Assembly: GCA_000004985.1 (NCBI GenBank)
Contig: GG738847.1
Source: Naegleria gruberi
Lineage: Eukaryota
Length of the DNA stretch: 64,000 nt
Direction: 5' to 3' (one strand)
Position numbers and translations under genes: made by a program. Numbering within the stretch: the first letter of the stretch is position 1; every line of letters starts with the position of its first letter. The notes under the pieces were generated by a model. The model ran no database searches and was not told the origin of the DNA. It saw only the letters and a list, made by a program, of their open reading frames with translations. Below are positions 1,903 to 21,030 of this stretch, in pieces.

Positions 1903-4133
1903 ATGACCGATTTTTCATCAAACAAAATCTTTGCTCCAAAGACTGATGGAAATGTCGATTTGAGTACAATAACCGAGTCGAATGCCGGAACAGTCTTTGG
2001 TTTATTTATTAATAATTTTAAACAGGATAATCAATATATTTATAAGGATCAAATGAGGTCTCACTTTGCTAATGGGCTCTACTATTTAGAAGTTGAATTG
2101 TTGCACCTCTCGGCATTCAATGATAATTTACATAATGCCATCATTAACACACCTAATACATATATTCCTTTGGTAAGTTTGATGATACGGAAATTCTAAA
2201 ATTTTGGAAATAGGTGGAAAAACATGTCAAGGAAAGTGTCATACCCAAACTGTGTAAACCAACAACTGAAAAACAATCAGAAGAAGAATTTAAAGAATTT
2301 TTGAAGGATATTCCTTTTCAAGTCACATTCAAATGGTCAATTGCAAAACCTATTAACATTAGAGATTTGAAAGCAGAAGACGTTGGTAAAGTTGTTTGTG
2401 TGAAAGGAATCATTATTAATAATTCTAGAGTGAGTGTAAAGATTGAAAAGGCCTATATTAGATGTTCTCTTTGTCCTAAGGAAGAAATCATTCATGTAAA
2501 TCCAGGTTAGTATATTATATTTCAGTAAATTTGGATCTGACACATTTTAGGTTTTACTGGAATAACACTTCCAACAAGATGTAACAATGAAGGTGGATGT
2601 AAAGGATCTTTCAGAGTAGTACCTGATAAATGTAAATATTACGATCAACAAACACTCAAATTACAGGAAAGCCCTGAAACTGTAACAACAGGTGACATGC
2701 CTAGAACCATTTTAATGTATAGTGATAGATATCTTGTTGAAAGAACGCCACCAGGTACAAGAGTCAATGCAGTTGCAATTATGAGTACATTCCACTCTTC
2801 TGGAGCTAAGAAATCGGATTCTAATATTTCACAACCTTATTTAAGAGTAATTGGATTTGAAATTACAAATGATGGTTCTGGTAGATCAAGGATTGAATTT
2901 TCAAGCAGTGAGGAAAATGAAATGAGACAATTCGCCAAACAAAAGAATCTCTACAAGAATATTGCAGAATCTATTGACCCTGCCATTTATGGTTGCGAAG
3001 ATATTAAGAAGGCTCTTGCTTGTCAATTATTTGGAGGTTCTGCCAAAACGCTCAATGATGGTATTAGAAGAAGAGGTGACATTAATGTTTTGCTCCTTGG
3101 TGACCCTTCCACTGCCAAATCTCAATTACTGAAATTTGTGGAAAAGGTTGCCCCAATTGGAGTTTATACAAGTGGTAAAGGCAGTAGTGCTGCTGGTTTA
3201 ACTGCTTGTGTTATTAAGGAACCTGGAACAGGTGAATTCTATTTGGAAGGAGGGTCAATGGTTCTGGCTGATGGTGGTATTGTCTGTATTGACGAATTTG
3301 ACAAGATGAGAGAACAAGACAGAGTTGCTATTCACGAAGCTATGGAACAACAAACTATTTCAATTGCCAAAGCTGGTATCACAACTGTATTGAACAGTAG
3401 AACGTCTGTTTTAGCAGCTGCCAACCCTCTCTTTGGTAGATATGATGATTTCAGATCTCCAGCTGAACAAATTGATTTCCAAACTACTATCCTTTCAAGA
3501 TTTGACATGATATTTATTGTGAGAGATTTGGTGGATAAAGACAGAGATCAGAGAATTGCCAATCACGTTCTTAATCACAAGCGTGATAGCACTAAGAATA
3601 CACAAGACGAAAGTAGCATCTACAAACTCAAGAGGTATATTGCCTTTGCTCGTTCATCTTGTTCACCTAGATTGAGTGATGATGCCTCTGAATTTTTATT
3701 GAATTTCTATGTACAACAAAGAGAAGCCAGTAAGACTGAAGACTCTATTATTCCTATAACGGTAAGACAATTGGAAGCCTTAATTCGTATTTCAGAATCT
3801 CTTGCCAAAATGGAACTTGCTGATTCAGCCACTCTCAAACATGCAGAAGAAGCAGTGAGATTATTCAAGAGCTCTACAGTCGAAGCCATCAATAGTCATG
3901 GTTTGGGTGGAGAACTTGCATTAGCTTCCATGTCAAAAGATTTACAAAATATTGAAAATGAAATCCTCAAAATTACTCCTATCGGTCACACAACACAAGT
4001 TGAAGCCATTGTTAGTAATTTGGAAAATGCTGGTTTCAAACGCCATCTCATTGAAAAGGCCATATTTGTTATGTGTCAAAGAAAAGATATGGAATATAAG
4101 GCACAACGAAGATTCATCCAAAGAAATAGATAA
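1903..4133 (+). CDS. mcm5: DNA replication licensing factor MCM5 (3 exons: 1903..2172, 2214..2505, 2551..4133)
   Basis: Walker A GDPSTAKSQLL, Walker B CIDEFDKMREQDRVAIHEAMEQQTISIAKAGITT (an MCM5-specific string), arginine finger SRFDMIF. N-terminal YYLEVELLHLSAFNDNL matches the MCM5 N-terminus. Introns of 41 and 45 nt with GT..AG in consistent phase. Confidence 0.9.
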
Positions 4134-8452: not shown

Positions 8453-9862
8453 ATGAAACAACAATCAACATTATGCTGTAACGTCTTGATAATAGGTGGT
8501 GGTTTGGCTGGGCTTTCCGCTGCTCATCATTTTAACTCGGTGGGAATGAGTGATTTCCTTATTGTCGAAGCTGACTCTCGTTTGGGTGGGCGTATCTATT
8601 CTGATACCCAAAGTGGTATTGAAATTGGTGCTGAATTTATTCATGGTCAAGGAAGCATGGCTCATGATATTCTTACCAAGTTGAAAGTACCACTCGATCA
8701 CGTTTTTGATTTTTCAAAGACTAATCCAAAGGAACATGGTGCCATGTATTTCATTGGTAAGTGTTTTTTAGTTTGATATGCTTATCGGAAATTAGATGGA
8801 AAACTTCATTCGATTGATTCACCTATTGCTAAGGAAATGCTTGGTATTATTGATGAATTGATGGAAGATAAGGAATTAAAAACAAGCCCAGATATGTCAA
8901 TTAAGGAATGGTTAGTCAAGAGAAAGATTCCAGAAAAGTATCACGTTTTTATTGATTCACTCCTCGCCAAAACAAATGGTGGGTGCATTAATACAGTTAG
9001 TGCTAAGGGTATACAAGAAGAAGGAAACAAGTGGCCATATGGTTCAGGAAACTTCCAGCTTAATGGTGACCACTATATGGAACCATCCTTGATGAAATAT
9101 TTATTGAATAATTTATCACTTAAGGATCAGGTTAAACTTGATTATGTTGTCCGTAAAATTGATTATACATGCAAATCGGGAATGATTAAGATCAATGATG
9201 GTGAAATTTTGTGTAATAAGGTCATTTGTACCGTCCCTATCACTGCATTGAAGAATCAAACTGTTGTTTTTAATCCACCATTGTCACCAATTAAGAAGCA
9301 CATTATTCAAAACATGTTACCAATGCAAAGTGGTATGAAAGTTGTTTTGAGATTTAAGAAACCATTCTGGAGAACAATGATTCCAGATACTAATATTATC
9401 ATCCTTGGTGATGAAAATCCATTTGTTGCTCAACTCTGGTTCCCACATACAACTCAACAAAAGCACGATCAATATGGTTACTACATGACTGGTTTCAGTA
9501 TGGGTAATAAGACTGATCATGGTCTTTTTTACACAGAAGAAGAAATTGCTCAAAGTATGAGAAAGATGGTTCACAAAGTTTTTGGTTTGAATGAATCTAA
9601 TGACGGTTTCATTGGAGGTATTGTCAAGAATTGGCAATCATTCCAATACGTTGCTGGTTCATATGCCTATTGTGGTGTTACTGATGCCTCCAGAAAGAAC
9701 TTTGTTGAAAATTGTAGACAAGTTTTGGGTGAACCAATTGAAAATAGAATCTACTTTGCAGGTGAAATTTATGCTGACTATTCTCCAGCCACAATTCATG
9801 GTTCTATGGAAACAGGTGATGCTGTTGCCAAGTCCATCATGAGCAGAGGATCCAAGTTATAA
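8453..9862 (+). CDS. Flavin-containing polyamine/amine oxidase with C-terminal PTS1 -SKL (exons 8453..8756, 8796..9862)
   Basis: FAD-binding VLIIGGGLAGLSAAHHF at the N-terminus. Amine-oxidase C-terminal block YFAGEIYADYSPATIHGSMETGDAVA. 39-nt intron GTAAGT..TTAG in phase 1. The protein ends RGSKL*. Confidence 0.8.
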
Positions 9863-9891: not shown

Positions 9892-11163
9892 TTAAAGTTG
9901 TGAAGCATCAAAGGTTCGAGGAGCATCATCATCCCCTTCTCTTGAAGGCATGTTATCGTTGAGTGTTTCATTTGATTTCATTCCTCTTTGCTCGCTGAGG
10001 ATTGAGTAAATGGTCCTTCCATTATTAATATAAATATCCACAAACTTTCTATCAAATTCAAACATATTATCCTCTGAATCGTCTAAAATTATAATATCCT
10101 TGATTTCTTCTGGAATATCTTTCGAAGTATCCTTTCTCAAGTAGGATGATTCTAATTTTTCTTCCTCAACTGTAAACATATTGATCTTCTCCTTTGTGTA
10201 GGTCTTGGTATTTTGTAAATGGGTGAAGAGTGAGTAGCATCGGGTGAGAGAATTGGCATGGTAGGTACACTTCTTTGAGCAAGTATCCATTTCTAAAAGT
10301 TCATAACATTCAGAGATCACCTTCCAGAATGAATAGCTTCTAATATTCGTCTGATAACAAGTGTCAATGACTGTAAATTTAAATCTGATATCCACTCCTT
10401 GTTCATTGACCGTGACATCCTTCTTTTTAATCTCATCACTAATAAGGAATAACAGTGACTCCTTCACATGGATGCATCTCTGCAATAAACCAATGCATTG
10501 AGTGAGAAGGTACTTATTCAATTTAGTGTTTTTCATGACATGTATCAAAACTCTTGCCTTGAATTCCCAAATCTGTGTCATGAAACTGGCCACATGTGAC
10601 TTGGAAAATTTCTGACTCTTTGGCAAGACACCATTCTTTCTAATAATTTCATACTCTATTACATTCAAATATTTAATAATCATATATTCTGCACCAGTAT
10701 CTCCTTTCATATTATTCATAATCTTCAATAAACATCTTAGGAAGGTATCGAGAATTTCTCTCCTAATCACAATCGGAACTTTCAACAATTTGAACATTTT
10801 AAGAAAATTAGCAATGGAATCATCACTGAAAATATAGGAAAGCAATTCATCACCATCATTAAATTCTTGATTAATTCCTTGCATTCCGATACTTTGAAAA
10901 ATTAATTCCACAACCTTGGTATATTCCCTCTTCATATACATATGATCCAATTCGTATTTTAAACAATTAGGTTCCATTTCCTTTCCTCTCTCTTGACAAT
11001 ACCAATTGCTAGTATGAAATTGTGCAATATATTTAATATTGTTATTATTATTTTCATCATGATGATTATTTTCCGAATATTCAGTTGTTGTTTCTTCTTC
11101 TATTGGAGCATTAAATTCCGAACCAGAATTTTGCAAGGGATTTACCTCTTTCTGTTGACTCAT
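9892..11163 (-). CDS. Hypothetical protein (423 aa), Asn-rich N-terminus, acidic C-terminus with SIM-like IIILDDSED
   Basis: Long uninterrupted ORF with ATG at 11163. No recognised domain. Confidence 0.5.
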   Translation of the reverse strand: MSQQKEVNPLQNSGSEFNAPIEEETTTEYSENNHHDENNNNNIKYIAQFHTSNWYCQERGKEMEPNCLKYELDHMYMKREYTKVVELIFQSIGMQGINQEFNDGDELLSYIFSDDSIANFLKMFKLLKVPIVIRREILDTFLRCLLKIMNNMKGDTGAEYMIIKYLNVIEYEIIRKNGVLPKSQKFSKSHVASFMTQIWEFKARVLIHVMKNTKLNKYLLTQCIGLLQRCIHVKESLLFLISDEIKKKDVTVNEQGVDIRFKFTVIDTCYQTNIRSYSFWKVISECYELLEMDTCSKKCTYHANSLTRCYSLFTHLQNTKTYTKEKINMFTVEEEKLESSYLRKDTSKDIPEEIKDIIILDDSEDNMFEFDRKFVDIYINNGRTIYSILSEQRGMKSNETLNDNMPSREGDDDAPRTFDASQL

Positions 11164-11449: not shown

Positions 11450-14400
11450 TTACAAAAGGAAAACAGAGGCAATGGCCAAAAGGACAGCCAAGAGACTAGA
11501 GAAAACTGAAGCAGATGCACTCTTTACAGTGAGGGAAGTGAATTTGTTACCAAAATTGAGGGTTGGGAGAGAAAGGGTAACAGTAGCATCAGACAAGTCA
11601 ACAACCATTGGAGCATTCATAAATCCAGAGAATGTACTAGTAGCACAATCAATATCCAAATTGGTCTTAATCTTCATAGTATGGACCTTTCCATTTTGAC
11701 TAACTGGAACAACATAGAATGACAATCCATTTTCCAAGAGATGTCCCTTAAGAACAGTTGATGGTCCAAGATTTTGAGTGGCCTTAGCAGTTTCAGTATA
11801 GAGGACAATGGTACCATTGGCAAACCATGATGAAATATAACCAGTGTAGGAACCTTGAATTCTATCCAAGAGACCATCAGGATAAGCTGGGGCAACAACA
11901 CTCTTACGGAGTTGTTCAATAATTGGAGTGAAAATAATTGGAGCATTCTTGAGAGCAATATTGTTAGCAACTGGAGAGTTCAAAGAAGCTAAAGTAATCA
12001 TTACAAAATCAAGTTCTGGAACAACCAATGGTTTGGCATTGTAACCATAAACAGAACCTCCCTTAGTCAAGTAGAACAAGTTATTTTTGTTGTCATACAT
12101 GGTTTCAAAGGCACCCAAACCAATGGTGAACGTAGCATCGTTAGCCAAGAATGTTGGCATGAATTGTCTCATAGCATCCTTTGAAATTGGAACTGGACAA
12201 GCATTGGCATTGTTAAGAGAGCTATAAGTGAAACAAGAGAAGAATTTTAACATATCATTAGCAGTACTGTACATGCCACCAGCAGGTTCTTGAGCCAACA
12301 ACATGGTCAAATAATCTGGATCTCTACCAACAACCATCTTGGAAAGAATATCAGAAGTATAATCAAATCCAGTGTTTGACATGCCCAACTTGTCGAAAAT
12401 GTTAATCTTACAGAATTCTCTGAATGATTTACCTGTAATCAATTCAAGAACTCTACCCAAAATAGTAAAGTCTACATTACTGTAATAACGATCACTGATG
12501 GATGGAGCCATAAATTGCAACAAGTCAACAGTGGCTTTTCTGTATTCATCAAAAGTCATACTGCAATTATATGGGTCACAAGGGGAAGTTCTAGACAAAC
12601 CAGCACCATGGATCATTAATTGTCTGAAAGTAATCTTGTTAGTTGCTGTCGTAAAGTACTTGTTAGTATATTGGAAATCTTTAACATAGTTAGTGATTGG
12701 TTCATCAATACTCTTAATAATACCCAATTCTTGAGCAATCAAAGCAGCCATACTGGTAAAAACTTTAGTGACAGAGGCAACTCTAAAGATGGAATCGGCA
12801 GTAGGGGTTTCAGTTTCCTTACCCTTTGTACCAACTTGACCAACACCTTGGTTCATAACAACAGTATCTCTATATTTGGCAAGAATAATTCCTGATCCAT
12901 TCTTTGCGCCATTGTCAACCAAAATAGATTTAACCATGTTATTCTTGAGGTCTGTTAAAGCAGATTGAAGAGTTGAAACATCAATTTCTGCAGATCTTGG
13001 AAGAATGTTACATTTAGGGTTTGAATCAGCTGCCTTCAATGCTCTGACTTGAGACTTGAGGGATCTAGCACTTGCCTTTGGATTGACATCAGAACTAATC
13101 TTAGTGTAAGCAACGAACCAATCAAGACCTGGCATCCAGAAGTACAAGTTACCGTCCTTATCATTTGAGAATCTAAGAACTTCATTTCCGTAACCTCCCT
13201 TAAACAATGTCAAAGAATCGATATATGCAGCTTCTTGAATATCTCTAATAATGAAAGCATTATTTGGTTGGTAATCCAAATCAAAATTAACATAAATTCC
13301 ACCCAAATTAATGTTCATAATAGTTTGACCATCTTGATAATACAAAGTGGCATTGGTTCCATCAGCATTACACAAATAGGTACCTTGGTACTTGGCTTGA
13401 TCTTGAGCTGGAGGTAAAACAAATGCTGGCATGACAGACACATATTGACTCATAAGTGTTCCAACAGCCTTAGCATAAATTTGTTCAGCAATATATGTAG
13501 CAAAGACATCTCTATTGGAAGAAATTGAAATGATTGCAAACTTGTATTCTGGAACAAAGATCATGTGAGAAGAAAATCCGAGAACGTTTCCTCTCTTAGA
13601 TCTCTTCCATACGTTATACTTGCTATCGTGACTCATTTCAAAGGCAAAACCAGTTGCATTTTGAGCGTCTGGAGAAATATATTGAGGAGTGAAAAATTCA
13701 CGAACAGTTTGACGAGTAAGAATACTTTCATCATTCAAGATTGAGGAGGCATAATAGGTCAAATCTTGCAATGTAGAGTAAGCATCCATGGAACCTTCAC
13801 ACCAACCAGACTTTACTTCAGAATCGAATGTGATGGTGGCATTGCCAGCATAGCTTGGAGTAACGTGAGTGGAAACAGTGAGGAGATCAGAGACGAGACC
13901 AGAGTTGGACATGGAGGCACTTTTCATTACATCCTTAAGATTAGAAGAGACGGATTGGCCATTCATCTTGGCAAGAGCTTGACTCAACCAACAATAACCA
14001 AAGTCAGAATAAACTGGTACAGAGTATGGTTCATGTATAGCTGACGAATGTCCAGGAAGACCAGAATCGGTCATTGCCTTAACGACTTCATCACTAGAAA
14101 GATTACAATCAAAGAGTTTGCAAGGAGCTTGTCTACCGAGACCGCTCATGTGTGTGGATAATTGTCTCAAAGTTACAGAGGAAATTGGAAACTTGGAGAA
14201 TGTACTAGTGAGAGCATCATCGAGTTTCAACTTTCCAGCATCTCTCATTCTGAACATTTGAGTAGCAACCAACAACTTGGTCAAATCACCAATACGAACC
14301 TTAGTGGTGGCGTCACCATTTCCAGAGAACAAACTAATTGTGTTACCACCTGGATACACAATAGCACTAGCAGCAAAACCTGATGAAACTGTAAAGGCAG

Positions 14401-14506
14401 CATCTTGGATAGCTTGAGCATCACTTGGAGAAAACTTTGCGTCTAAGAATGTTGAGCAGAAAAGCAAGCAACTTAGAAGAATTACTAGAATTGTTGGTTT
14501 GAGCAT
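11450..14506 (-). CDS. Secreted protein with two beta-lactamase/penicillin-binding-protein-like serine hydrolase domains; hydrophobic C-terminus (GPI/TM-like)
   Basis: Signal peptide MLKPTILVILLSCLLFCSTFLDA. Second domain has SxxK motif SVTKVFTSMAALIAQELG; first domain is related but more degenerate. C-terminal SLLAVLLAIASVFLL. Single 1018-aa exon. Confidence 0.7.
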   Translation of the reverse strand: MLKPTILVILLSCLLFCSTFLDAKFSPSDAQAIQDAAFTVSSGFAASAIVYPGGNTISLFSGNGDATTKVRIGDLTKLLVATQMFRMRDAGKLKLDDALTSTFSKFPISSVTLRQLSTHMSGLGRQAPCKLFDCNLSSDEVVKAMTDSGLPGHSSAIHEPYSVPVYSDFGYCWLSQALAKMNGQSVSSNLKDVMKSASMSNSGLVSDLLTVSTHVTPSYAGNATITFDSEVKSGWCEGSMDAYSTLQDLTYYASSILNDESILTRQTVREFFTPQYISPDAQNATGFAFEMSHDSKYNVWKRSKRGNVLGFSSHMIFVPEYKFAIISISSNRDVFATYIAEQIYAKAVGTLMSQYVSVMPAFVLPPAQDQAKYQGTYLCNADGTNATLYYQDGQTIMNINLGGIYVNFDLDYQPNNAFIIRDIQEAAYIDSLTLFKGGYGNEVLRFSNDKDGNLYFWMPGLDWFVAYTKISSDVNPKASARSLKSQVRALKAADSNPKCNILPRSAEIDVSTLQSALTDLKNNMVKSILVDNGAKNGSGIILAKYRDTVVMNQGVGQVGTKGKETETPTADSIFRVASVTKVFTSMAALIAQELGIIKSIDEPITNYVKDFQYTNKYFTTATNKITFRQLMIHGAGLSRTSPCDPYNCSMTFDEYRKATVDLLQFMAPSISDRYYSNVDFTILGRVLELITGKSFREFCKINIFDKLGMSNTGFDYTSDILSKMVVGRDPDYLTMLLAQEPAGGMYSTANDMLKFFSCFTYSSLNNANACPVPISKDAMRQFMPTFLANDATFTIGLGAFETMYDNKNNLFYLTKGGSVYGYNAKPLVVPELDFVMITLASLNSPVANNIALKNAPIIFTPIIEQLRKSVVAPAYPDGLLDRIQGSYTGYISSWFANGTIVLYTETAKATQNLGPSTVLKGHLLENGLSFYVVPVSQNGKVHTMKIKTNLDIDCATSTFSGFMNAPMVVDLSDATVTLSLPTLNFGNKFTSLTVKSASASVFSSLLAVLLAIASVFLL

Positions 14507-15073: not shown

Positions 15074-16152
15074 TTACATCATGCTACACTTTTCATTCTT
15101 GTTGGAAACCTGTAATACTTTTGCATCGTCTTTTAACACTAACTTGAGAATTTCACTGATCGAGTAGGATCCAAGATAATGTCTTCTTCCCAATTGTTCA
15201 AACATGGCCCTCAGACTCGAATTACTGGTGGCGTTCGTTTCAAAAATTTCACTGTTCGAAAGATCATACGTTTTGATTAATTGTCCAAGCTTCTTCTTAT
15301 ACTCATCAACTTGATTTCGATATGTTGGATCTGAATTTGAAAAATCAATCTTATTCAGTGCAAACATGACTGGGAAATCATTCACCACTGCATTCTTTGC
15401 TTTCACAATCAGCTCGATATTAAAAATCAATTCTTGCATAATGAAATTGTCAATGGATGATACCACAACAAAGGCTTGTCTGTATTTCATATACTGTTCT
15501 TTCATTGAACTGAATTCCTCTCCATGAATATCATCATTCAATTCCAATCTAATTGATTTTTCATCCACTCGAATAAATTTCAAATCCACATCTTCTATTG
15601 TTGGATCGTAACTGTTTCATATGATTTAAAGTTATGAAGGATTGGAATGTTTCACAATATTTACATACGTTAAACCATAATTGGAAAAAATTCATGAACA
15701 AATGAATTGATTATACTGGTCTTTCCACTTTTCCTACATCCAGTAACGAATATTCTAATATCTCCTGCTCTATTCTCTGAAACTGGATGCAGTAGTGTTC
15801 TTCTAGCATGTCTTGTCAATAGAATTTTCCTTTTCAAGCAATTCTTCTTAATCATTTCCAACTTTGCTTTTTCAATTTCTTTTGAATTACTTTCTGGTTG
15901 TTCCAATTCGAACACTTTCCACCAAAAATTATTTAAATATTCTCTCATTTCCATTCTAGAATTTAATCGACAACTCAAGCTCTCAAATATGGCCATCATT
16001 CTAATAGAATTTTTAACTGTTCCACGATCGGATAATGATGTGTCCACAACAAATTCTAAAATTTCTATCAAGATTTCACTTGGGATTTGCAGAAATAAAT
16101 TAAATTCTTGAGGGTGGCCATACTGATGTGAGTGTTTCTTGTGTTTCGACAT
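15074..16152 (-). CDS. F-box-like N-terminus fused to Ras-like (pseudo?)GTPase domain; 2 exons (about 15670..16152 and 15074..15611) with unresolved junction
   Basis: F-box-like IPSEILIEILEFV. P-loop IFVTGCRKSGKTSII in exon 1. Exon 2 opens with the Ras switch-I string YDPTIED, then a degenerate G3 LELNDDIHGEEF and G4 ALNKID. The intervening 56-nt GTATGT..AACAG intron is obvious, but exon 1 ends on TAA one base out of phase (see findings). Confidence 0.55.
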
Positions 16153-16355
16153 TTTTTTACTGGTTGTTGGAACTTTGGTTGTTGGCGCCAAAATTTGATT
16201 TGCTGTTTTCCAAAATTAAAAAATGTCAACACGAATTTGTGCTTGAATTGCATAATTCGGGATGTGTTGAACATTTGAGATGAACATTTAATAATTCGGA
16301 GGAATGAAGAAAATAATAAAATAATAGATGATTTATTGAGAAGTTTAGAAACCAT

Positions 16356-18616
16356 TTAAACTACAGTACAAATAATTATTACAATAATTGAACCGATGAT
16401 AGATCCACCAATTGAAGAAGAAGCACTTGAATTTCTATTACTTGGTTGAGGATTATTTGATGATTTGGATCCAATAGGTTTAGGAAGGGATGAAGAAACA
16501 GGAGTTTCAATCTTTTCCAAAACTCTGATACGAAAATTGGATGCATCCCCAATGAAAATCTTTCCACTCACAGGATCAATTGAAACATCATATGGATAGT
16601 ATAATTGAGATTGTGTGGAAAGAATGCCATCTTGATTATATCCTCCAATTCCATTTCCAGCAATGGTAGTCAAATTTCCATTTTGAATTCTTCTAATTTT
16701 GTGGTTATTAGTGTCAGCAATATAAATCACTTGCCCACTTTCATCAACTGTGACATCATATGGAGAGTTTACTCTGGATTCGAGAGCTGACATGTTGTCA
16801 TCATTGAAACCTGCCTGTCCTGTTCCTGCAATGGTGGAAATCATTCCAGTACTTGCTAATATTTTACGAATTCTATGATTCTGCTTGTCAGCAATGTACA
16901 CATTTCCCTTATTATCAACTGAAACGCCATGAGGAAGATAGAGTTTTGCCTCTGTTGCCATAATGACATCGCCATTATATCCAGCGGATCCAGTTCCAGC
17001 AATGGTTGAAATAATACCATTATTGGAAACCTTTCTAACACGATGATTGGAACGATCAGAGATGAAAAGTTCATCATTTCCATTCAATGCAATACCGAAT
17101 GGATAATTCAATTGAGAAGAAGTGGCTTGAATTCCATCCTTATTAAAACCAGAATTACCATTTCCAGCTATAGTTGAAATAGTGCCATTTGTGAATACAA
17201 TTCTCACTCTATGATTGTATGAATCTGATATGTAAATATTTCCAATAGAATCACTAGCAACACCATGAGGATAATTCAATTGAGCGTCTATTGCCAACAT
17301 TCCATCTCCATTGTATCCACCAATTCCATTACCAGCAATTGTCTTTACAGAACCATCTTTTGAAATTCTTCTCACGCGATGATTGGAACGATCACAGAAG
17401 ATTAATTCACCATCCTTGAAGGCCATAGAGGATGGATGATTAATTAATGTAGAGAGGGATGTAGCTCTATCACCATTGAAACGTTCAAAGCCAGTTCCTG
17501 CAATTGTTGAAATCATTCCATTGAGTTTGACAATTCTAATTACAAAATTATCAGTGTCCGTAATGATCAGCTCTCCATCATAACCGATGGTTACATCGGC
17601 TGGGCGACTGAGTTTGGCAGAGGTTGCTAGAACTTCCTCATCTCGAGAACCAGTAGTACCATTACCAGCAAGTGTTGAAATGATTCCACTACTATTGGAA
17701 ATGAGTCTAATTCGATGATTATTTCTATCTGCAATAATGATATTATCATTCGAGTCGATAGTGATACCATTGGGAGTATTTAATTTGGTAGTATTAGCTG
17801 GAATTCCATCACCAGAATAACCACTCACACCTGTTCCAGCAACAGTTGAAATAATACCACTATTTGAAACCTTTCTGATACGATGATTTTGACTATCAGC
17901 AATGAAGACCTCATTTAAACTATTCAAAGCAACAGTTGTTGGAAGATTCAAACTAGATAACGTTGCCAACATGTTATCACCATTATATTTACCATATCCA
18001 TCTGCATCTCCTTCTCCATTACCTGCAATAGTAATGATTGTTCCATTTGAAAAAACCTTTCTAATAAGATGATTAAATGTATCGCTGATATAAATTCCTC
18101 AGTATTTGGTTGACCAGGTTGAGACTTTACATAGATACCATGAGGATAATTCAATTTGGCTTGCATGGCAGTAGAATAATCACCAGAATAACCAGCACTT
18201 CCAACACCAGCCACAGTAATAATGGTACCATTCAATAATATCTTTCTAATTCTATGATTATACGTATCAGCAATATAAACCTCACCCAAATCATTTACAG
18301 CCACATCATATGGATAGTACAAGTGAGCTTGTGAGGAAAGAATACCATCTCCATTGTAACCAGCAAAGCCAGTACCAGCAATTGTAGTCATAGTTCCATT
18401 TGCAAGGATTTTTCTAACTCTATGGTTATAAGTGTCAGAAATGAAGTATTCTCCCTTGATTGGTCCAGTTGATACATCGAATGGCCAATTTAAGGATGAT
18501 TCCTTAGCAGGGAGAGAATCACCCAAACCACCTGCAAAAGTTTGAATGAGATAGTCTTGTCCAAAAACCAAGGATTGGACTAGTAAGATTGAAAGGAGTA
18601 GAAGGATTAATTTCAT
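16356..18616 (-). CDS. NHL-repeat protein with signal peptide and hydrophobic C-terminus; reading frame interrupted by a 1-nt frameshift near 18093
   Basis: ORFs 17948..18616 and 16356..17972 both consist of repeated YNHRIRKI...NGTIxTIAGTG units (NHL repeats). Signal peptide MKLILLLLSILLVQSLVFG. C-terminus IIGSIIVIIICTVV. The frames join if one A is added in GAGGAA(A)TTTATATC. Confidence 0.65.
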
Positions 18617-19263: not shown

Positions 19264-21030
19264 TTATTGGGAATCTTGGTTGAGCTTCTTGATTTCAGAC
19301 AATTGGAATCTACCGCTAGGATCGACTTCATACTTACTCCATGGCAACCACTTCTTGCAAGTCTTGGCACAAATATCAGATGGGAAGTGCTTTTCGAACA
19401 AGGTTCTATAATAGTAAGCTTCCTTAGAAATTGGAGTATTGTAAGGGAATCTTTCAGCAGCCTTAGCAAAGTCTTCGTCAGTGACTTGCTTGTCACAGAA
19501 TTCCTTCAAAGAGTCAATCCAACCGTGACCAACACCATCACCAAATTGAACCTTAGTTCTCCACAAAATTTCATCAGGAATCAAATCCAATCCATCAAAG
19601 GCCTTTCTAAGAACAAACTTTTCCATATTGTGTTCCTCACCATCAGTACCATGGTAGTGATGCAATTTATGATCTGGATGAATAGTCATGACAGTATCCA
19701 AAAAGTCCTTATCCAAGAATGGAACTCTAGCTTCCAAACCATGAGCCATGGTAGCTCTATCACATCTCATAACGTCAGCCAAGTGCAAGTTTCTAACCTT
19801 AGTAACCATTTCATCTTGTAATTGTTGAGAGTCCTTGGCATCTCTGAAATAGACATAACCACCAAACATTTCATCACTTCCTTCACCAGACAAGATAACA
19901 CGAATGTATTGAGAAGCCAAGTGAGAGAGCAAGAACATTGGTGTAGTAGCTCTAACAGTAGTGACATCATAAGATTCCAAGTGATAGACAACCTTTTCCA
20001 AAGCAGCAATACCTTCGTCAATAGCGAAAATGTGTTCATGGTGAACAGTGCCCAAGTGAGCAGCAACCTTTCTGGCAGCAACCAAATCGGAACTTTCATT
20101 TGCACCAATACCAATTGAGAAACTGTGCAAACGAGGTTGGTTAGTATACTTTTTAACAAGAGCAGCAACAAGTGAGGAGTCCAAACCACCACTCAAAAAG
20201 ACTCCCAATTCAACATCAGACATCATTCTCTTCTTAACAGCAGCCTCAAAACCTTCTCTAATCTTGACCAAATCAGTTTCTTCTGGCTTGTTGTAAACCT
20301 TGCTATCAAACCAAATTGGGTTATAATATTGTTCAATAACACCAAATTCTTGAGAAGAATGTTGAAGATAGACCATACCTGGTAAGAAGGTATCAATTTC
20401 ATAACAGCCAGCTGCACTCAAAACTTTCATTTCAGAGGCAAACCAGACACTGTCCATTTGTCCATCAACATTCTTCTTTCTACCCATGTAGAGAGGCTTG
20501 ATACCAATACGGTCACGAGCAGCAACCAAGGTTTGAGTAACAGAGTCATAGACAACAGTAGCAAAGTAACCATCCAATTTGGAAACAAATTCAACAGCAT
20601 CTTGAATGGTAATAACAGTCAATGGATCGACTTGACCTTTTTCAATTCTCTTCTTTTTAGCTTGTTCGTACAAGTGAAGAATACATTCAGAATCGGAATG
20701 AGTACGGTATTGGAATCCTTCCTTTTTCAATTCAGCATCAATGTCATCATGGTTATAAATTTCACCATTGTGAATGACAGCACAAGTTTCATCTTGTGAA
20801 AGAATTGGTTGTTTACCAGTAGTAAGATCAATAATGGACAAACGTTCATGAGCCATACAAGCATAGGATTCCTTGGCAGTGGAAAGAGGCCATACTTTAA
20901 TATCAGATTCAATTGGTCCTCTGTGAACGAGCAATTTGGATAAGGCACGAACTTCTTCCAACGCTTCTTGTCTTTGATCTTGACTAGCTTTTTCAGTGAG
21001 ATATCTCAAAACAAAGGTAATTCCGCACAT
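19264..21030 (-). CDS. asns: Asparagine synthetase (glutamine-hydrolysing)
   Basis: Starts MCGI (class II glutamine amidotransferase Cys2). PP-loop SGGLDSS. 588-aa single exon colinear with AsnB/ASNS. Confidence 0.9.
   Translation of the reverse strand: MCGITFVLRYLTEKASQDQRQEALEEVRALSKLLVHRGPIESDIKVWPLSTAKESYACMAHERLSIIDLTTGKQPILSQDETCAVIHNGEIYNHDDIDAELKKEGFQYRTHSDSECILHLYEQAKKKRIEKGQVDPLTVITIQDAVEFVSKLDGYFATVVYDSVTQTLVAARDRIGIKPLYMGRKKNVDGQMDSVWFASEMKVLSAAGCYEIDTFLPGMVYLQHSSQEFGVIEQYYNPIWFDSKVYNKPEETDLVKIREGFEAAVKKRMMSDVELGVFLSGGLDSSLVAALVKKYTNQPRLHSFSIGIGANESSDLVAARKVAAHLGTVHHEHIFAIDEGIAALEKVVYHLESYDVTTVRATTPMFLLSHLASQYIRVILSGEGSDEMFGGYVYFRDAKDSQQLQDEMVTKVRNLHLADVMRCDRATMAHGLEARVPFLDKDFLDTVMTIHPDHKLHHYHGTDGEEHNMEKFVLRKAFDGLDLIPDEILWRTKVQFGDGVGHGWIDSLKEFCDKQVTDEDFAKAAERFPYNTPISKEAYYYRTLFEKHFPSDICAKTCKKWLPWSKYEVDPSGRFQLSEIKKLNQDSQ

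What the first reader, a model, noticed from the sequence alone, without database searches (positions are those of the whole stretch)
11450..14506. Secreted 1018-aa protein made of two beta-lactamase/PBP-like serine-hydrolase domains with a GPI/TM-like tail
The protein has a signal peptide, an N-terminal beta-lactamase-fold-like domain, and a second domain with a clear SxxK motif (SVTKVFTSMAALIAQELG). The tandem arrangement and the hydrophobic C-terminus suggest a surface-anchored enzyme. The gene is single-exon in an otherwise intron-containing neighbourhood and is of a bacterial-type family, so it may be a horizontally acquired gene retained for cell-wall, peptidoglycan or lactone hydrolysis in a bacterivore.
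Basis: partly seen in the sequence, partly recalled or inferred. Interest (0 to 1): 0.5.

Follow-up and report, generated by a model that had tools for sequence, protein, structure and literature searches.

The report
Tandem LACTBL1-like serine hydrolase, one half dead
This Naegleria gruberi gene encodes a probably surface-anchored protein built from two copies of a beta-lactamase-fold hydrolase unit, of which only the second keeps its catalytic serine; it belongs to a eukaryote-wide family (LACTBL1-like), so it is not a recent bacterial import.

Summary
Window 11450-14506 (-) is one uninterrupted 1018-aa ORF, identical to an NCBI 'predicted protein' of Naegleria gruberi. Each half hits Pfam PF00144 on its own and models as a beta-lactamase/DD-peptidase fold. 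The only hydrophobic segments are a signal-peptide-like N-terminus and a GPI-signal-like C-terminal tail.

Three things change. First, only the C-terminal domain is catalytically complete (S578-x-x-K581, Y675-x-N677, K815-G-G). The N-terminal domain has Asp74 in place of the nucleophile Ser and YSD in place of YSN, so it is probably a pseudo-enzyme. Second, a second N. gruberi paralogue (NAEGRDRAFT_72626) has the same tandem layout with the opposite pattern: N-domain intact, C-domain TxxQ/FxT. Third, the closest relatives are eukaryotic: Amoebozoa, a choanoflagellate, a fungus and Nematostella 'beta-lactamase-like 1'. They share a Cys pair that was absent from all 66 bacterial-type hits and from every named prokaryotic sequence examined. 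Codon usage matches the neighbouring genes.

A Naegleria-specific transfer from bacteria is therefore not supported, although an ancient bacterial origin of the whole family remains possible. The likely function, a cell-surface D-stereospecific peptidase acting on bacterial peptides, is inferred and untested. Interest is modest.

The parts
11450..14506 (-). Complete single-exon CDS of 1018 aa plus a TAA stop. Identical to an N. gruberi 'predicted protein'.
14438..14506 (-). Residues 1-23, MLKPTILVILLSCLLFCSTFLDA. Signal-peptide-like: Lys3, a hydrophobic core, and a small residue at -1.
   Evidence: Hydropathy. The cleavage site is judged by rule; no predictor was run.
13520..14371 (-). N-terminal S12 / beta-lactamase-fold domain, residues 46-329. 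Probably non-catalytic.
   Evidence: PF00144 63.6 bits. AF2 model mostly above pLDDT 90. Foldseek E 1e-17 to 1e-22 against S12 structures.
14276..14287 (-). D74-L-T-K77, in the position of the SxxK motif. The nucleophile Ser is replaced by Asp. The codon is GAT, two changes away from any Ser codon.
   Evidence: It aligns to rvgSVTK of the R61 DD-peptidase, rigSVTK of 9s7k and igSTSK of 9sn1. Ser is present in 218 of the 223 domain units that have a residue at this column. Codon read.
14003..14011 (-). Y166-S-D168, in the position of the YxN motif. Asn is replaced by Asp.
13589..13597 (-). K304-R-G306. The third motif (K/H-x-G) is retained in the N-domain.
14105..14122 (-). C129-x4-C134, the family-signature Cys pair of the N-domain (…GRQAPCKLFDC…).
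13097..13426 (-). Extension 1, residues 361-470. A beta-strand-rich module that follows the N-domain and is homologous to the C-terminal module of single-domain eukaryotic family members.
   Evidence: A profile built from 12 non-Naegleria family members scores 23.9 bits; the best of 100 shuffled controls scores 6.5. Beta strands appear in the AF2 model.
12947..13096 (-). Inter-unit linker, residues 471-520. Its first part is predicted as a helix.
11969..12871 (-). C-terminal S12 / beta-lactamase-fold domain, residues 546-846. Catalytically complete.
12764..12775 (-). S578-V-T-K581, an intact SxxK motif (nucleophile Ser plus general-base Lys).
12476..12484 (-). Y675-S-N677, an intact YxN motif.
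12056..12064 (-). K815-G-G817, the third motif with Lys. Together with S578, K581 and Y675 it gives a Ser-Lys-Lys-Tyr set like Lip3 and class C enzymes.
   Evidence: PMC12903863
12563..12580 (-). C643-x4-C648, the family-signature Cys pair of the C-domain (…SRTSPCDPYNC…).
11522..11902 (-). Extension 2, residues 869-995. A divergent beta-rich module following the C-domain.
   Evidence: It aligns with the extension of metagenomic relative P0072: BLASTP covers 436 aa at 31% identity. P0072's extension in turn matches the family extension profile at 15.1 bits. Extension 2 is not detected directly (2.1 bits), and the AF2 model is below pLDDT 50 here.
11453..11521 (-). Residues 996-1018, SASASVFSSLLAVLLAIASVFLL. 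Small-residue candidate omega sites are followed by a hydrophobic tail that runs to the last residue. This looks like a GPI-attachment signal, or alternatively a membrane anchor with no cytoplasmic tail.
   Evidence: Hydropathy. Judged by rule; no GPI predictor was available.

Best explanation
The gene encodes a secretory-pathway protein of the eukaryotic LACTBL1-like branch of the S12 (PF00144) serine-hydrolase family.

Architecture. One family unit is a catalytic domain plus a beta-rich C-terminal module. That unit was duplicated in tandem inside a single ORF before two N. gruberi paralogues diverged. Afterwards each paralogue lost the catalytic residues of a different unit. In this protein the N-terminal domain is dead (Asp for the nucleophile Ser, Asp for the YxN Asn). 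The C-terminal domain keeps the full Ser578/Lys581/Tyr675/Lys815 set.

Proposed working. The protein enters the ER through its signal peptide. It is then tethered to the outer face of the plasma or phagosomal membrane by its C-terminal signal, most likely a GPI anchor. The C-domain would acylate on Ser578 and hydrolyse an amide bond, most probably next to a D-amino acid in bacterial peptidoglycan stem peptides or other D-residue peptides. The folded but inactive N-unit would serve as a non-catalytic binding or spacer module.

What is shown: the architecture, the motif states, the family placement, and the host-like gene context.
What is inferred: the GPI anchoring, the substrate class, and the role of the dead domain.
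For: Architecture:
- One ORF with no internal hydrophobic segment.
- PF00144 hits both halves.

Motif states:
- Shown by PDB alignments and by MSAs of 18, 63 and 231 units.
- Only 5 of the 223 units with a residue at that column lack the Ser.

Reciprocal decay and order of events:
- P0071 (NAEGRDRAFT_72626) aligns collinearly, query 24-863.
- Its N-domain reads SxxK/YxN/KSG and its C-domain reads TxxQ/FxT/KYG.
- N-to-N (140 bits) and C-to-C (135 bits) comparisons score higher than N-to-C comparisons (68-108 bits).
- The two C-domains plus P0072 cluster at 96% bootstrap.

The dead domain is still under constraint:
- The model has high pLDDT.
- Amino-acid divergence from the 96-97%-identical copy P0002 is the same in the dead and the live domain (3.6% against 4.1%).

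Eukaryotic family:
-.
- The Cys pair is present in 42 of the top 50 hits and in 0 of 66 bacterial-type hits.
- Peitsaro 2008 defines the 'LACTB-like 2' lineage in vertebrates plus Dictyostelium and predicts members in phagotrophic protozoa (PMC2266909).

Peptidase leaning:
- The best NCBIfam match is the AmpH DD-carboxypeptidase/endopeptidase.
- The best PDB sequence matches are Lip3 DL-peptidase, a Yersinia D-Ala carboxypeptidase-like protein and alkaline D-peptidase.
- In Lip3 the same Ser/Lys/Lys/Tyr residues are essential (PMC12903863).

Surface exposure is a family theme:
- P0072 ends in a Ser/Thr/Gly-rich stretch, a true TM helix and a short cytosolic tail.
- The Nematostella protein has an N-terminal TM segment.
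Against: - No biochemical data exist for any LACTBL1-like protein. Human LACTBL1 was insoluble when expressed in E. coli (PMC12148432).
- All NCBIfam matches are far below their cut-offs (AmpH 123 against 266).
- Signal peptide and GPI signal were judged by simple rules only. I found no paper documenting GPI transamidase in Naegleria.
- The NJ split that puts the gene among eukaryotes has only 55% bootstrap, and the N-domains are unresolved.
- The inactivity of an Asp-for-Ser domain is inferred from other S12 enzymes and was not measured.
- No orthologue from another Naegleria species was recovered, so conservation of the dead site cannot be assessed.
Confidence: 0.6

Rival explanations
1. Recent horizontal acquisition. 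The gene was taken by the Naegleria lineage from a bacterium and kept for digesting prey cell walls.
For: PF00144 is overwhelmingly bacterial. The word-indexed search returned mainly metagenomic bacterial-type PF00144+DUF3471 proteins at about 30% identity. The gene has no intron. The eukaryote/prokaryote split in the NJ tree has only 55% bootstrap.
Against: - The exhaustive search ranks eukaryotic proteins first.
- Eukaryotic family members score 85-166 bits against 26-90 bits for bacterial ones, for all four Naegleria domains.
- The Cys-pair signature is shared with named eukaryotes and absent from every named prokaryotic sequence examined.
- Extension 1 matches the eukaryotic family's C-terminal module and not bacterial DUF3471.
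- Codon usage and GC3 are host-like.
- The flanking genes are ordinary eukaryotic genes.
Confidence: 0.08
2. Same architecture, but the live domain is an esterase, lipase or acyl-transferase (like family VIII carboxylesterases, EstB, IS11 or LovD) acting on lipids or small esters, and not a D-peptidase.
Against: The top sequence matches lean towards peptidases: AmpH, and Lip3, the Yersinia DD-carboxypeptidase-like protein and alkaline D-peptidase. This is a weak discriminator.
Confidence: 0.25
3. The C-terminal hydrophobic stretch is a permanent transmembrane anchor (type I, with no cytoplasmic tail) and not a cleaved GPI signal.
For: The nearest C-domain relative, P0072, has a genuine TM helix followed by a charged cytosolic tail. 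No GPI predictor was run, and I found no paper on Naegleria GPI transamidase.
Against: The hydrophobic run reaches the very last residue with no flanking basic residues. It is preceded by a run of small residues (K-S-A-S-A-S), which is the usual layout of a GPI signal. A Naegleria pangenome paper reports evidence of GPI-anchored proteins (PMC9928731).
Confidence: 0.3
4. The N-terminal domain is not dead. Asp74 acts as an alternative nucleophile or base and gives the domain a different chemistry.
For: Lys77, Tyr166 and Lys304-x-Gly306 are all retained around Asp74. The domain is as conserved as the live one against the near-identical copy. Asp nucleophiles are known in other hydrolase folds (general knowledge).
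Against: - To my knowledge no S12 or PBP-fold enzyme uses Asp.
- Ser-to-Ala substitution abolishes activity in Lip3 (PMC12903863).
- The YxN Asn is also lost (YSD).
- The paralogue's degenerate domain lost Ser, Lys, Tyr and Asn together (TxxQ/FxT), which fits simple decay of whichever unit is redundant.
Confidence: 0.04
5. Gene-model artefact. Two adjacent single-domain genes are read as one protein.
For: The Heterostelium 1021-aa model looks like such a fusion. Its two units are near-identical, and the second is preceded by a hydrophobic, signal-like segment.
Against: Here the 3057-nt frame has no stop and no internal hydrophobic segment. The same collinear two-unit layout is found in an independent paralogue on another scaffold.
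Confidence: 0.03

Closest known systems
LACTBL1 / 'LACTB-like protein 2' lineage of eukaryotic PBP-beta-lactamase homologues (Peitsaro et al. 2008, PMC2266909), for example Nematostella 'putative beta-lactamase-like 1' XP_032226577
   Same: - A PF00144 catalytic domain with SxxK/YxN/K-x-G.
- The conserved '…G-L-P-R-x-x-P-C-x3-4-C…' Cys pair.
- A beta-rich C-terminal module.
- A secretory or membrane-tethered topology.
- The best sequence scores of any named group: 108-137 bits to Nematostella, and up to 166 bits to an unnamed, Cys-pair-bearing metagenomic relative (P0074).
- The proposed, untested role in digesting bacterial peptidoglycan in phagotrophs.
   Different: - Two units in one polypeptide instead of one.
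- One unit has lost the nucleophile.
- A GPI-signal-like C-terminus instead of an N-terminal TM segment (Nematostella) or no anchor (the Amoebozoa transcripts).
- Only about 28-30% identity.
- I could not compare directly with human LACTBL1.
N. gruberi paralogue NAEGRDRAFT_72626 (XP_002672351, 963 aa)
   Same: The same tandem two-unit layout, collinear over residues 24-863 at about 30% identity. It has a signal peptide and both Cys pairs.
   Different: The dead domain is the other one: N-domain SVTK/YSN intact, C-domain TLTQ/FST degenerate. It has no hydrophobic C-terminal tail, so it is probably soluble and secreted.
Lip3/Lip7 DL-peptidases of Paenibacillus (PDB 9sn1; PMC12903863)
   Same: Lip3 is the best PDB sequence match to the C-domain (E 2e-15). 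It has the same Ser-Lys-Lys-Tyr residue set. It has an S12 domain followed by a beta-rich C-terminal domain that shapes the substrate cavity. It is also the top Foldseek hit for the N-half.
   Different: Lip3 is bacterial and has a single catalytic domain. Identity is 17-27%. No homology of the C-terminal modules was demonstrated. Its substrate (syringafactin lipopeptides) is known for Lip3 only.
Streptomyces R61 DD-peptidase and E. coli AmpH (MEROPS S12 DD-carboxypeptidases/endopeptidases)
   Same: The same fold and the same motif positions. R61 Ser62 aligns with S578 of the C-domain and with D74 of the N-domain. AmpH is the best NCBIfam model.
   Different: The score is far below the AmpH equivalog cut-off (123 against 266 bits). 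R61 has His, not Lys, in the third motif. Both are single-domain bacterial enzymes.
Mitochondrial LACTB
   Different: Sequence similarity is weak (E 3e-4 against 2e-15 for the best PDB hit). LACTB is imported into mitochondria and forms filaments. This protein has a secretory signal peptide and belongs to a different lineage.
Bacterial PF00144+DUF3471 (PF11954) serine hydrolases and bacterial multi-S12 proteins (Spartobacteria NCD34874, 4 domains)
   Same: An S12 domain followed by a short beta module beginning with a Y-x-G-x-Y motif. Tandem S12 repeats exist in bacteria too.
   Different: There is no Cys pair. The extension profile is not homologous to DUF3471 (hhalign probability 1.8%), and there is no PF11954 hit. 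In the bacterial proteins (Spartobacteria domains 2 and 3, metagenomic P0129 and P0130) and in the Heterostelium protein, repeats pair with each other at 100% bootstrap, which marks recent, independent duplications.

Membership tests
Pfam PF00144 / MEROPS S12 beta-lactamase-fold serine hydrolases | Significant match to the family profile, for each half separately | tested here: met
   The whole protein scores 178 bits. The N-half alone scores 63.6 bits (E 2.4e-17). The gathering score is 27.
Pfam PF00144 / MEROPS S12 beta-lactamase-fold serine hydrolases | The alpha/beta plus all-alpha DD-peptidase/beta-lactamase fold | tested here: met
Pfam PF00144 / MEROPS S12 beta-lactamase-fold serine hydrolases | Catalytic motifs SxxK, YxN and K/H-x-G in the C-terminal domain | tested here: met
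   S578-V-T-K581, Y675-S-N677 and K815-G-G817.
Pfam PF00144 / MEROPS S12 beta-lactamase-fold serine hydrolases | Catalytic motifs SxxK, YxN and K/H-x-G in the N-terminal domain | tested here: not met
   D74-L-T-K77 and Y166-S-D168. Only K304-R-G306 is kept. The domain has the fold but not the catalytic set.
Pfam PF00144 / MEROPS S12 beta-lactamase-fold serine hydrolases | Acyl-enzyme hydrolase activity | not testable with these tools
   Needs biochemistry.
Eukaryotic LACTBL1-like ('LACTB-like 2') lineage | The closest relatives are members of this eukaryotic lineage and not bacterial proteins | tested here: met
   Named top hits are Amoebozoa, a choanoflagellate, a fungus and Nematostella LACTBL1-like. 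Bit scores are 85-166 against 26-90 for bacterial proteins. The NJ eukaryote|prokaryote split includes all four Naegleria domains, with 55% bootstrap.
Eukaryotic LACTBL1-like ('LACTB-like 2') lineage | The conserved Cys pair after the G-L-P-R-x-x-P segment. This is a signature I derived here, not a published definition. | tested here: met
   C129/C134 and C643/C648. The pair is present in 95 of 225 domain units and in 42 of the top 50 hits. It is absent from all 66 bacterial-type hits and from every named prokaryotic sequence examined.
Eukaryotic LACTBL1-like ('LACTB-like 2') lineage | The family-specific beta-rich C-terminal module after the catalytic domain | tested here: inconclusive
   Extension 1 matches a profile of 12 non-Naegleria members at 23.9 bits (shuffled controls reach at most 6.5). 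Extension 2 does not match directly (2.1 bits) and is linked only through P0072.
Eukaryotic LACTBL1-like ('LACTB-like 2') lineage | Reciprocal best match with human LACTBL1 or with the Dictyostelium LACTB-like 2 proteins of Peitsaro 2008 | not tested
Nematostella XP_032226577, which NCBI names 'putative beta-lactamase-like 1', and dictyostelid Heterostelium PPL_02860 served as proxies.
Mitochondrial LACTB | Orthology-level similarity and mitochondrial targeting | tested here: not met
   LACTB 7v21 scores E 3e-4, against 2e-15 for the best PDB hit. The N-terminus is a hydrophobic secretory signal.
Class C beta-lactamase (AmpC) / AmpH equivalogs (NCBIfam) | A score above the curated equivalog cut-off | tested here: not met
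   bla_class_C scores 62 bits against a cut-off of 415. AmpH scores 123 against 266.
Bacterial PF00144+PF11954 (DUF3471) hydrolases | A C-terminal DUF3471 domain | tested here: not met
   There is no PF11954 hit even at E up to 10. hhalign of the eukaryotic extension profile against the bacterial DUF3471 region gives probability 1.8%.
GPI-anchored surface proteins | An N-terminal signal peptide plus a C-terminal signal: small omega-site residues, a short spacer and a terminal hydrophobic stretch with no cytosolic residues | tested here: inconclusive
   The sequence pattern is present: residues 1-23, and K-S-A-S-A-S followed by an 18-19-aa hydrophobic end. No dedicated predictor was available, and the Naegleria GPI machinery was not examined.

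The most novel reading that the evidence does not exclude
The two N. gruberi paralogues are a case of reciprocal sub-functionalisation of a tandem enzyme. An ancestral protein with two live S12 units gave rise to two proteins that each keep one live and one dead unit, in opposite order. The dead unit would be retained as a ligand-binding 'pseudo-PBP' that recognises bacterial peptides or peptidoglycan and presents them to the live unit. One version would sit GPI-anchored on the amoeba or phagosome surface and the other would be secreted. That would make these proteins combined receptor-and-hydrolase devices for bacterial prey, and the first functional handle on the uncharacterised LACTBL1 family.
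Probability: 0.2. Interest if true: 0.5.

Novelty: new variant of a known kind. Interest (0 to 1): 0.3.

Why it matters
LACTBL1-like proteins occur from amoebae to vertebrates, yet none has a known substrate (PMC12148432). Peitsaro et al. 2008 predicted that phagotrophic protozoa would carry such genes for digesting peptidoglycan, and this Naegleria gene fits that prediction. It also extends the lineage outside Amorphea, into Discoba.

The pair of paralogues offers a natural experiment. Each has one live and one dead domain, in opposite positions. That allows a test of whether a catalytically dead PBP-fold domain is kept as a binding module.

For genome annotation, the result is a caution. A 'bacterial-type' domain plus the absence of introns was not evidence of horizontal transfer here. 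The word-indexed homology search was also misleading on this point, and only the exhaustive search found the eukaryotic relatives.

Tried and rejected
- The word-indexed homologue searches with the full protein and with each half returned almost only distant bacterial-type metagenomic proteins. Taken alone they would have supported HGT. The exhaustive HMMER search overturned that.
- The look-up of encoding contigs for the near-identical copy P0002 found nothing on record. I could not decide whether it is an allele, a paralogue or a broken model.
- The metagenome scan with an alignment of the two Naegleria paralogues gave 80 loci. All are distant S12 genes at 22-33% identity. No further tandem Naegleria-like relatives appeared, so conservation of the dead site in other Heterolobosea is untested.
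- The afdb50 fold library was unavailable. I could not obtain UniProt-annotated structural neighbours such as human LACTBL1.
- I first assumed from MAFFT alignment A1 that the extensions correspond to bacterial DUF3471. A profile-profile test rejected this, and Pfam gave only a sub-threshold Calycin_like hit (E 0.09).
- The NJ tree of all 225 units was too poorly resolved to place the N-domains. The distances exceed 1.1 substitutions per site.
- Literature searches for Naegleria plus beta-lactamase, LACTBL1 and Naegleria plus GPI transamidase found nothing specific to this gene.

Full report
1. THE OBSERVATION

Window 11450..14506 on the minus strand is one open reading frame of 1018 codons ending in TAA. 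An in-frame stop lies five codons upstream of the first ATG, so the start is well defined. The product is 100% identical to an NCBI 'predicted protein' of Naegleria gruberi on a 941,567-bp contig. The window is therefore N. gruberi nuclear DNA.

Domain evidence:
- Pfam PF00144 (Beta-lactamase) matches the whole protein at 178 bits, in two stretches.
- The first 360 residues alone score 63.6 bits, E 2.4e-17, residues 46-329.
- The best C-terminal stretch is residues 546-846.
- The two halves align with each other at 25% identity over 328 residues, E 2e-22.

Only two segments are hydrophobic enough to be membrane-active, residues 1-26 and 992-1018.

2. ANATOMY

AlphaFold2 models were built from 63-sequence alignments.
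- The N-half has mean pLDDT 79, with the catalytic-type domain mostly above 90.
- The C-half has mean pLDDT 69, with a good catalytic domain and an extension below 50.
- The N-half matches S12 structures by Foldseek at E 7e-22 to 1e-17, with TMt about 0.74 to class C beta-lactamases. Its three best hits are Lip3 9sn1, esterase IS11 7spn and Pyrococcus Pab87 2qmi. All three are 'S12 domain plus C-terminal beta domain' proteins.

The half-to-half alignment runs past the catalytic domain into the following ~130 residues (…AKYQGTY… against …RIQGSY…). The repeated unit is therefore 'catalytic domain plus beta-rich extension'.

The resulting layout is:
- signal peptide, residues 1-23
- unit 1: domain 46-329 and extension about 361-470
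- linker
- unit 2: domain 546-846 and extension about 869-995
- a Ser/Ala-rich stretch and a hydrophobic tail that reaches the last residue

3. CATALYTIC RESIDUES

| Motif | C-domain | N-domain |
|---|---|---|
| SxxK | S578-V-T-K581 | D74-L-T-K77 |
| YxN | Y675-S-N677 | Y166-S-D168 |
| K/H-x-G | K815-G-G817 | K304-R-G306 |

The C-domain carries the Ser/Lys/Lys/Tyr set. Mutagenesis showed this set to be essential in its best PDB sequence match, Lip3: S98A and Y193A/F were dead, and K101A retained about 14% activity (PMC12903863; alignment).

In the N-domain the position of the nucleophile is Asp. HMMER alignments place D74 on Ser62 of the R61 DD-peptidase (rvgSVTK), and on the corresponding Ser of 9s7k and 9sn1. 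Among 231 aligned domain units, 223 have a residue at this column. Of those, 218 have Ser and only 5 do not. The D74 codon is GAT, two substitutions from any Ser codon, so this is not a single-base error. The N-domain is therefore most likely a pseudo-enzyme that keeps the fold.

4. A PARALOGUE WITH THE OPPOSITE PATTERN

The exhaustive HMMER search of 1.84 billion representatives found 29,097 hits at E up to 1e-3. The best non-self hit is P0071, which is N. gruberi NAEGRDRAFT_72626 (963 aa). It aligns in one collinear stretch, query residues 24-863, at E 1.4e-61. In that protein the N-domain reads SVTK / YSN / KSG and the C-domain reads TLTQ / FST / KYG.

Pairwise BLASTP scores between the four domains:

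| Comparison | Bits |
|---|---|
| N(this) vs N(paralogue) | 140 |
| C(this) vs C(paralogue) | 135 |
| N(this) vs C(this) | 86 |
| N(paralogue) vs C(paralogue) | 89 |
| N(this) vs C(paralogue) | 68 |
| C(this) vs N(paralogue) | 108 |

The two C-domains, together with a metagenomic fragment (P0072), cluster at 96% bootstrap. The tandem duplication therefore came before the split of the paralogues, and each paralogue then lost a different active site.

Against a 96-97%-identical second N. gruberi gene model (P0002), amino-acid differences are equally frequent in the dead domain (3.6%) and the live one (4.1%). This is limited evidence that the dead domain is not decaying freely.

5. WHERE THE FAMILY SITS

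The word-indexed searches returned mostly bacterial-type metagenomic proteins at about 30% identity, many with PF00144+PF11954. The exhaustive search ranks eukaryotic proteins first. Named hits are:
- Heterostelium album PPL_02860
- Phalansterium (three transcripts), Cavostelium, Clastostelium and Nolandella (Amoebozoa)
- Salpingoeca infusionum (choanoflagellate)
- Calcarisporiella thermophila (fungus)
- a cluster that includes Nematostella 'putative beta-lactamase-like 1'

Most of these share a Cys pair just after the conserved G-L-P-R-x-x-P segment. Calcarisporiella is the one named exception found. The pair is present in both Naegleria domains. It occurs in 42 of the top 50 hits, in none of the 66 bacterial-type hits, and in no named prokaryotic sequence examined.

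All four Naegleria domains score 85-166 bits against eukaryotic single-unit members and 26-90 bits against bacterial ones. In an NJ tree of 41 named units, one split separates all 20 eukaryotic-type units, including the four Naegleria domains, from all 21 prokaryotic-type units. Its bootstrap support is only 55%.

A profile of the C-terminal module from 12 non-Naegleria family members detects extension 1 at 23.9 bits, where the best of 100 shuffled controls reaches 6.5. The same eukaryotic module shows no profile-profile similarity to bacterial DUF3471 (probability 1.8%).

Peitsaro et al. 2008 (PMC2266909) had already defined a 'LACTB-like 2' lineage shared by vertebrates and Dictyostelium. 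They proposed an ancient alpha-proteobacterial origin and predicted members in phagotrophic protozoa. This gene is best filed there.

It is not mitochondrial LACTB (E 3e-4 against 2e-15 for the best PDB hit). It is also not an AmpC or AmpH equivalog, because the scores are far below the cut-offs.

6. THE HGT CLAIM

- Codon usage correlates with ten neighbouring ORFs at r = 0.94, higher than any neighbour's own leave-one-out value (0.67-0.92).
- GC3 is 0.315, within the neighbours' range of 0.22-0.35.
- The flanking genes are ordinary eukaryotic genes: MCM5, a Ras-family GTPase, an NHL-repeat protein and asparagine synthetase.
- Several neighbouring ORFs are also uninterrupted, so the lack of introns says nothing.

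A Naegleria-specific bacterial acquisition is not supported. An ancient bacterial origin of the whole eukaryotic lineage remains possible and is the published view.

7. HOW IT PROBABLY WORKS

Shown:
- a secretory-type N-terminus
- two folded S12 units, of which only the second is catalytically equipped
- a terminal hydrophobic stretch preceded by small residues

Inferred:
- The protein is translocated into the ER and attached to the outer membrane leaflet by a GPI anchor. A tail-less TM anchor is the alternative.
- Ser578 attacks an amide bond, or less likely an ester bond.

The peptidase reading rests on the best sequence matches: AmpH, Lip3 DL-peptidase, the Yersinia D-Ala carboxypeptidase-like protein and alkaline D-peptidase. 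It also rests on the bacterivorous life style. Structure alone cannot exclude an esterase. No LACTBL1-like protein has been characterised, and human LACTBL1 was insoluble in E. coli (PMC12148432).

Relatives vary in how they are tethered. P0072 has a true TM helix with a cytosolic tail. Nematostella has an N-terminal TM segment. The Amoebozoa sequences have only signal peptides, and the paralogue has no anchor. An extracytoplasmic location therefore appears to be the conserved theme.

8. VERDICT

The finding is real and the domain description is right, but the horizontal-transfer interpretation is not supported. What is new is modest: an internally duplicated member of a known but uncharacterised eukaryotic family, with complementary loss of the active site in two paralogues. 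None of my literature searches found a description of this. Interest is 0.3.

Noticed in passing
not in the window; protein P0002 (N. gruberi, 628 aa, on a 461,873-bp scaffold): A second N. gruberi gene model is 96-97% identical to this protein. It lacks residues 1-86, 375-459, 741-878 and 942-1018. It could be an allele, a very recent paralogue, a pseudogene or a mis-modelled gene. It keeps YSD in the N-domain and SVTK in the C-domain.
   Followed up: partly
window 15074-15589 and 15670-16191, minus strand: Two adjacent ORFs lie about 80 bp apart on the same strand. The downstream ORF matches the C-terminal two-thirds of the Ras family profile (PF00071 positions 40-158). This looks like one small-GTPase gene split by a short intron.
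   Followed up: partly
window 16356-17972, minus strand: A 538-aa ORF with six NHL repeats (PF01436, 190 bits; teneurin-type NHL). It is a beta-propeller protein lying two genes upstream of the hydrolase gene.
   Followed up: no
window 2697-4133 (+), 19264-21030 (-), 8837-9862 (+): Ordinary eukaryotic housekeeping genes: the MCM5 C-terminal part, asparagine synthetase, and a flavin amine oxidase fragment. They confirm that the hydrolase gene sits in normal chromosomal context.
   Followed up: partly
not in the window; P0073 (Heterostelium album PPL_02860, 1021 aa): This dictyostelid 'tandem' protein has two nearly identical units, both with SxxK. The second unit is preceded by a hydrophobic, signal-like segment. 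It is probably two adjacent recently duplicated genes merged in one gene model, and not a true fusion like the Naegleria one.
   Followed up: partly
not in the window; P0072 (JGI metagenome fragment, 478 aa): This is the closest relative of the C-terminal unit (37% identity by phmmer, 31% by BLASTP). It is 5'-truncated at the contig edge. It ends in a Thr/Gly/Ser-rich stretch, a real TM helix and a short charged tail. It may come from another heterolobosean and may also be the second half of a tandem protein.
   Followed up: partly
not in the window; P0125 (716 aa) and P0097 (742 aa), unnamed metagenomic proteins: These are other tandem S12 proteins with degenerate sites. P0125 has lost the nucleophile in both domains (DxxS and QxxE). 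P0097 has lost it in the first domain only (TxxM). Non-catalytic S12 domains therefore recur in tandem architectures.
   Followed up: no
not in the window; P0077 (Spartobacteria MAG, 2259 aa), P0155 (Kiritimatiellia MAG, 2913 aa), P0129, P0130: Very large bacterial and metagenomic proteins carry two to four S12 domains. Within-protein domain pairs cluster at 100% bootstrap in the Spartobacteria protein (domains 2 and 3), in P0129 and in P0130. Tandem multiplication of this domain has therefore happened independently several times.
   Followed up: partly
window 9892-11163, minus strand: A 423-aa ORF immediately downstream of the hydrolase gene has no Pfam match. It has an Asn/Glu-rich N-terminus and unknown function.
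   Followed up: no
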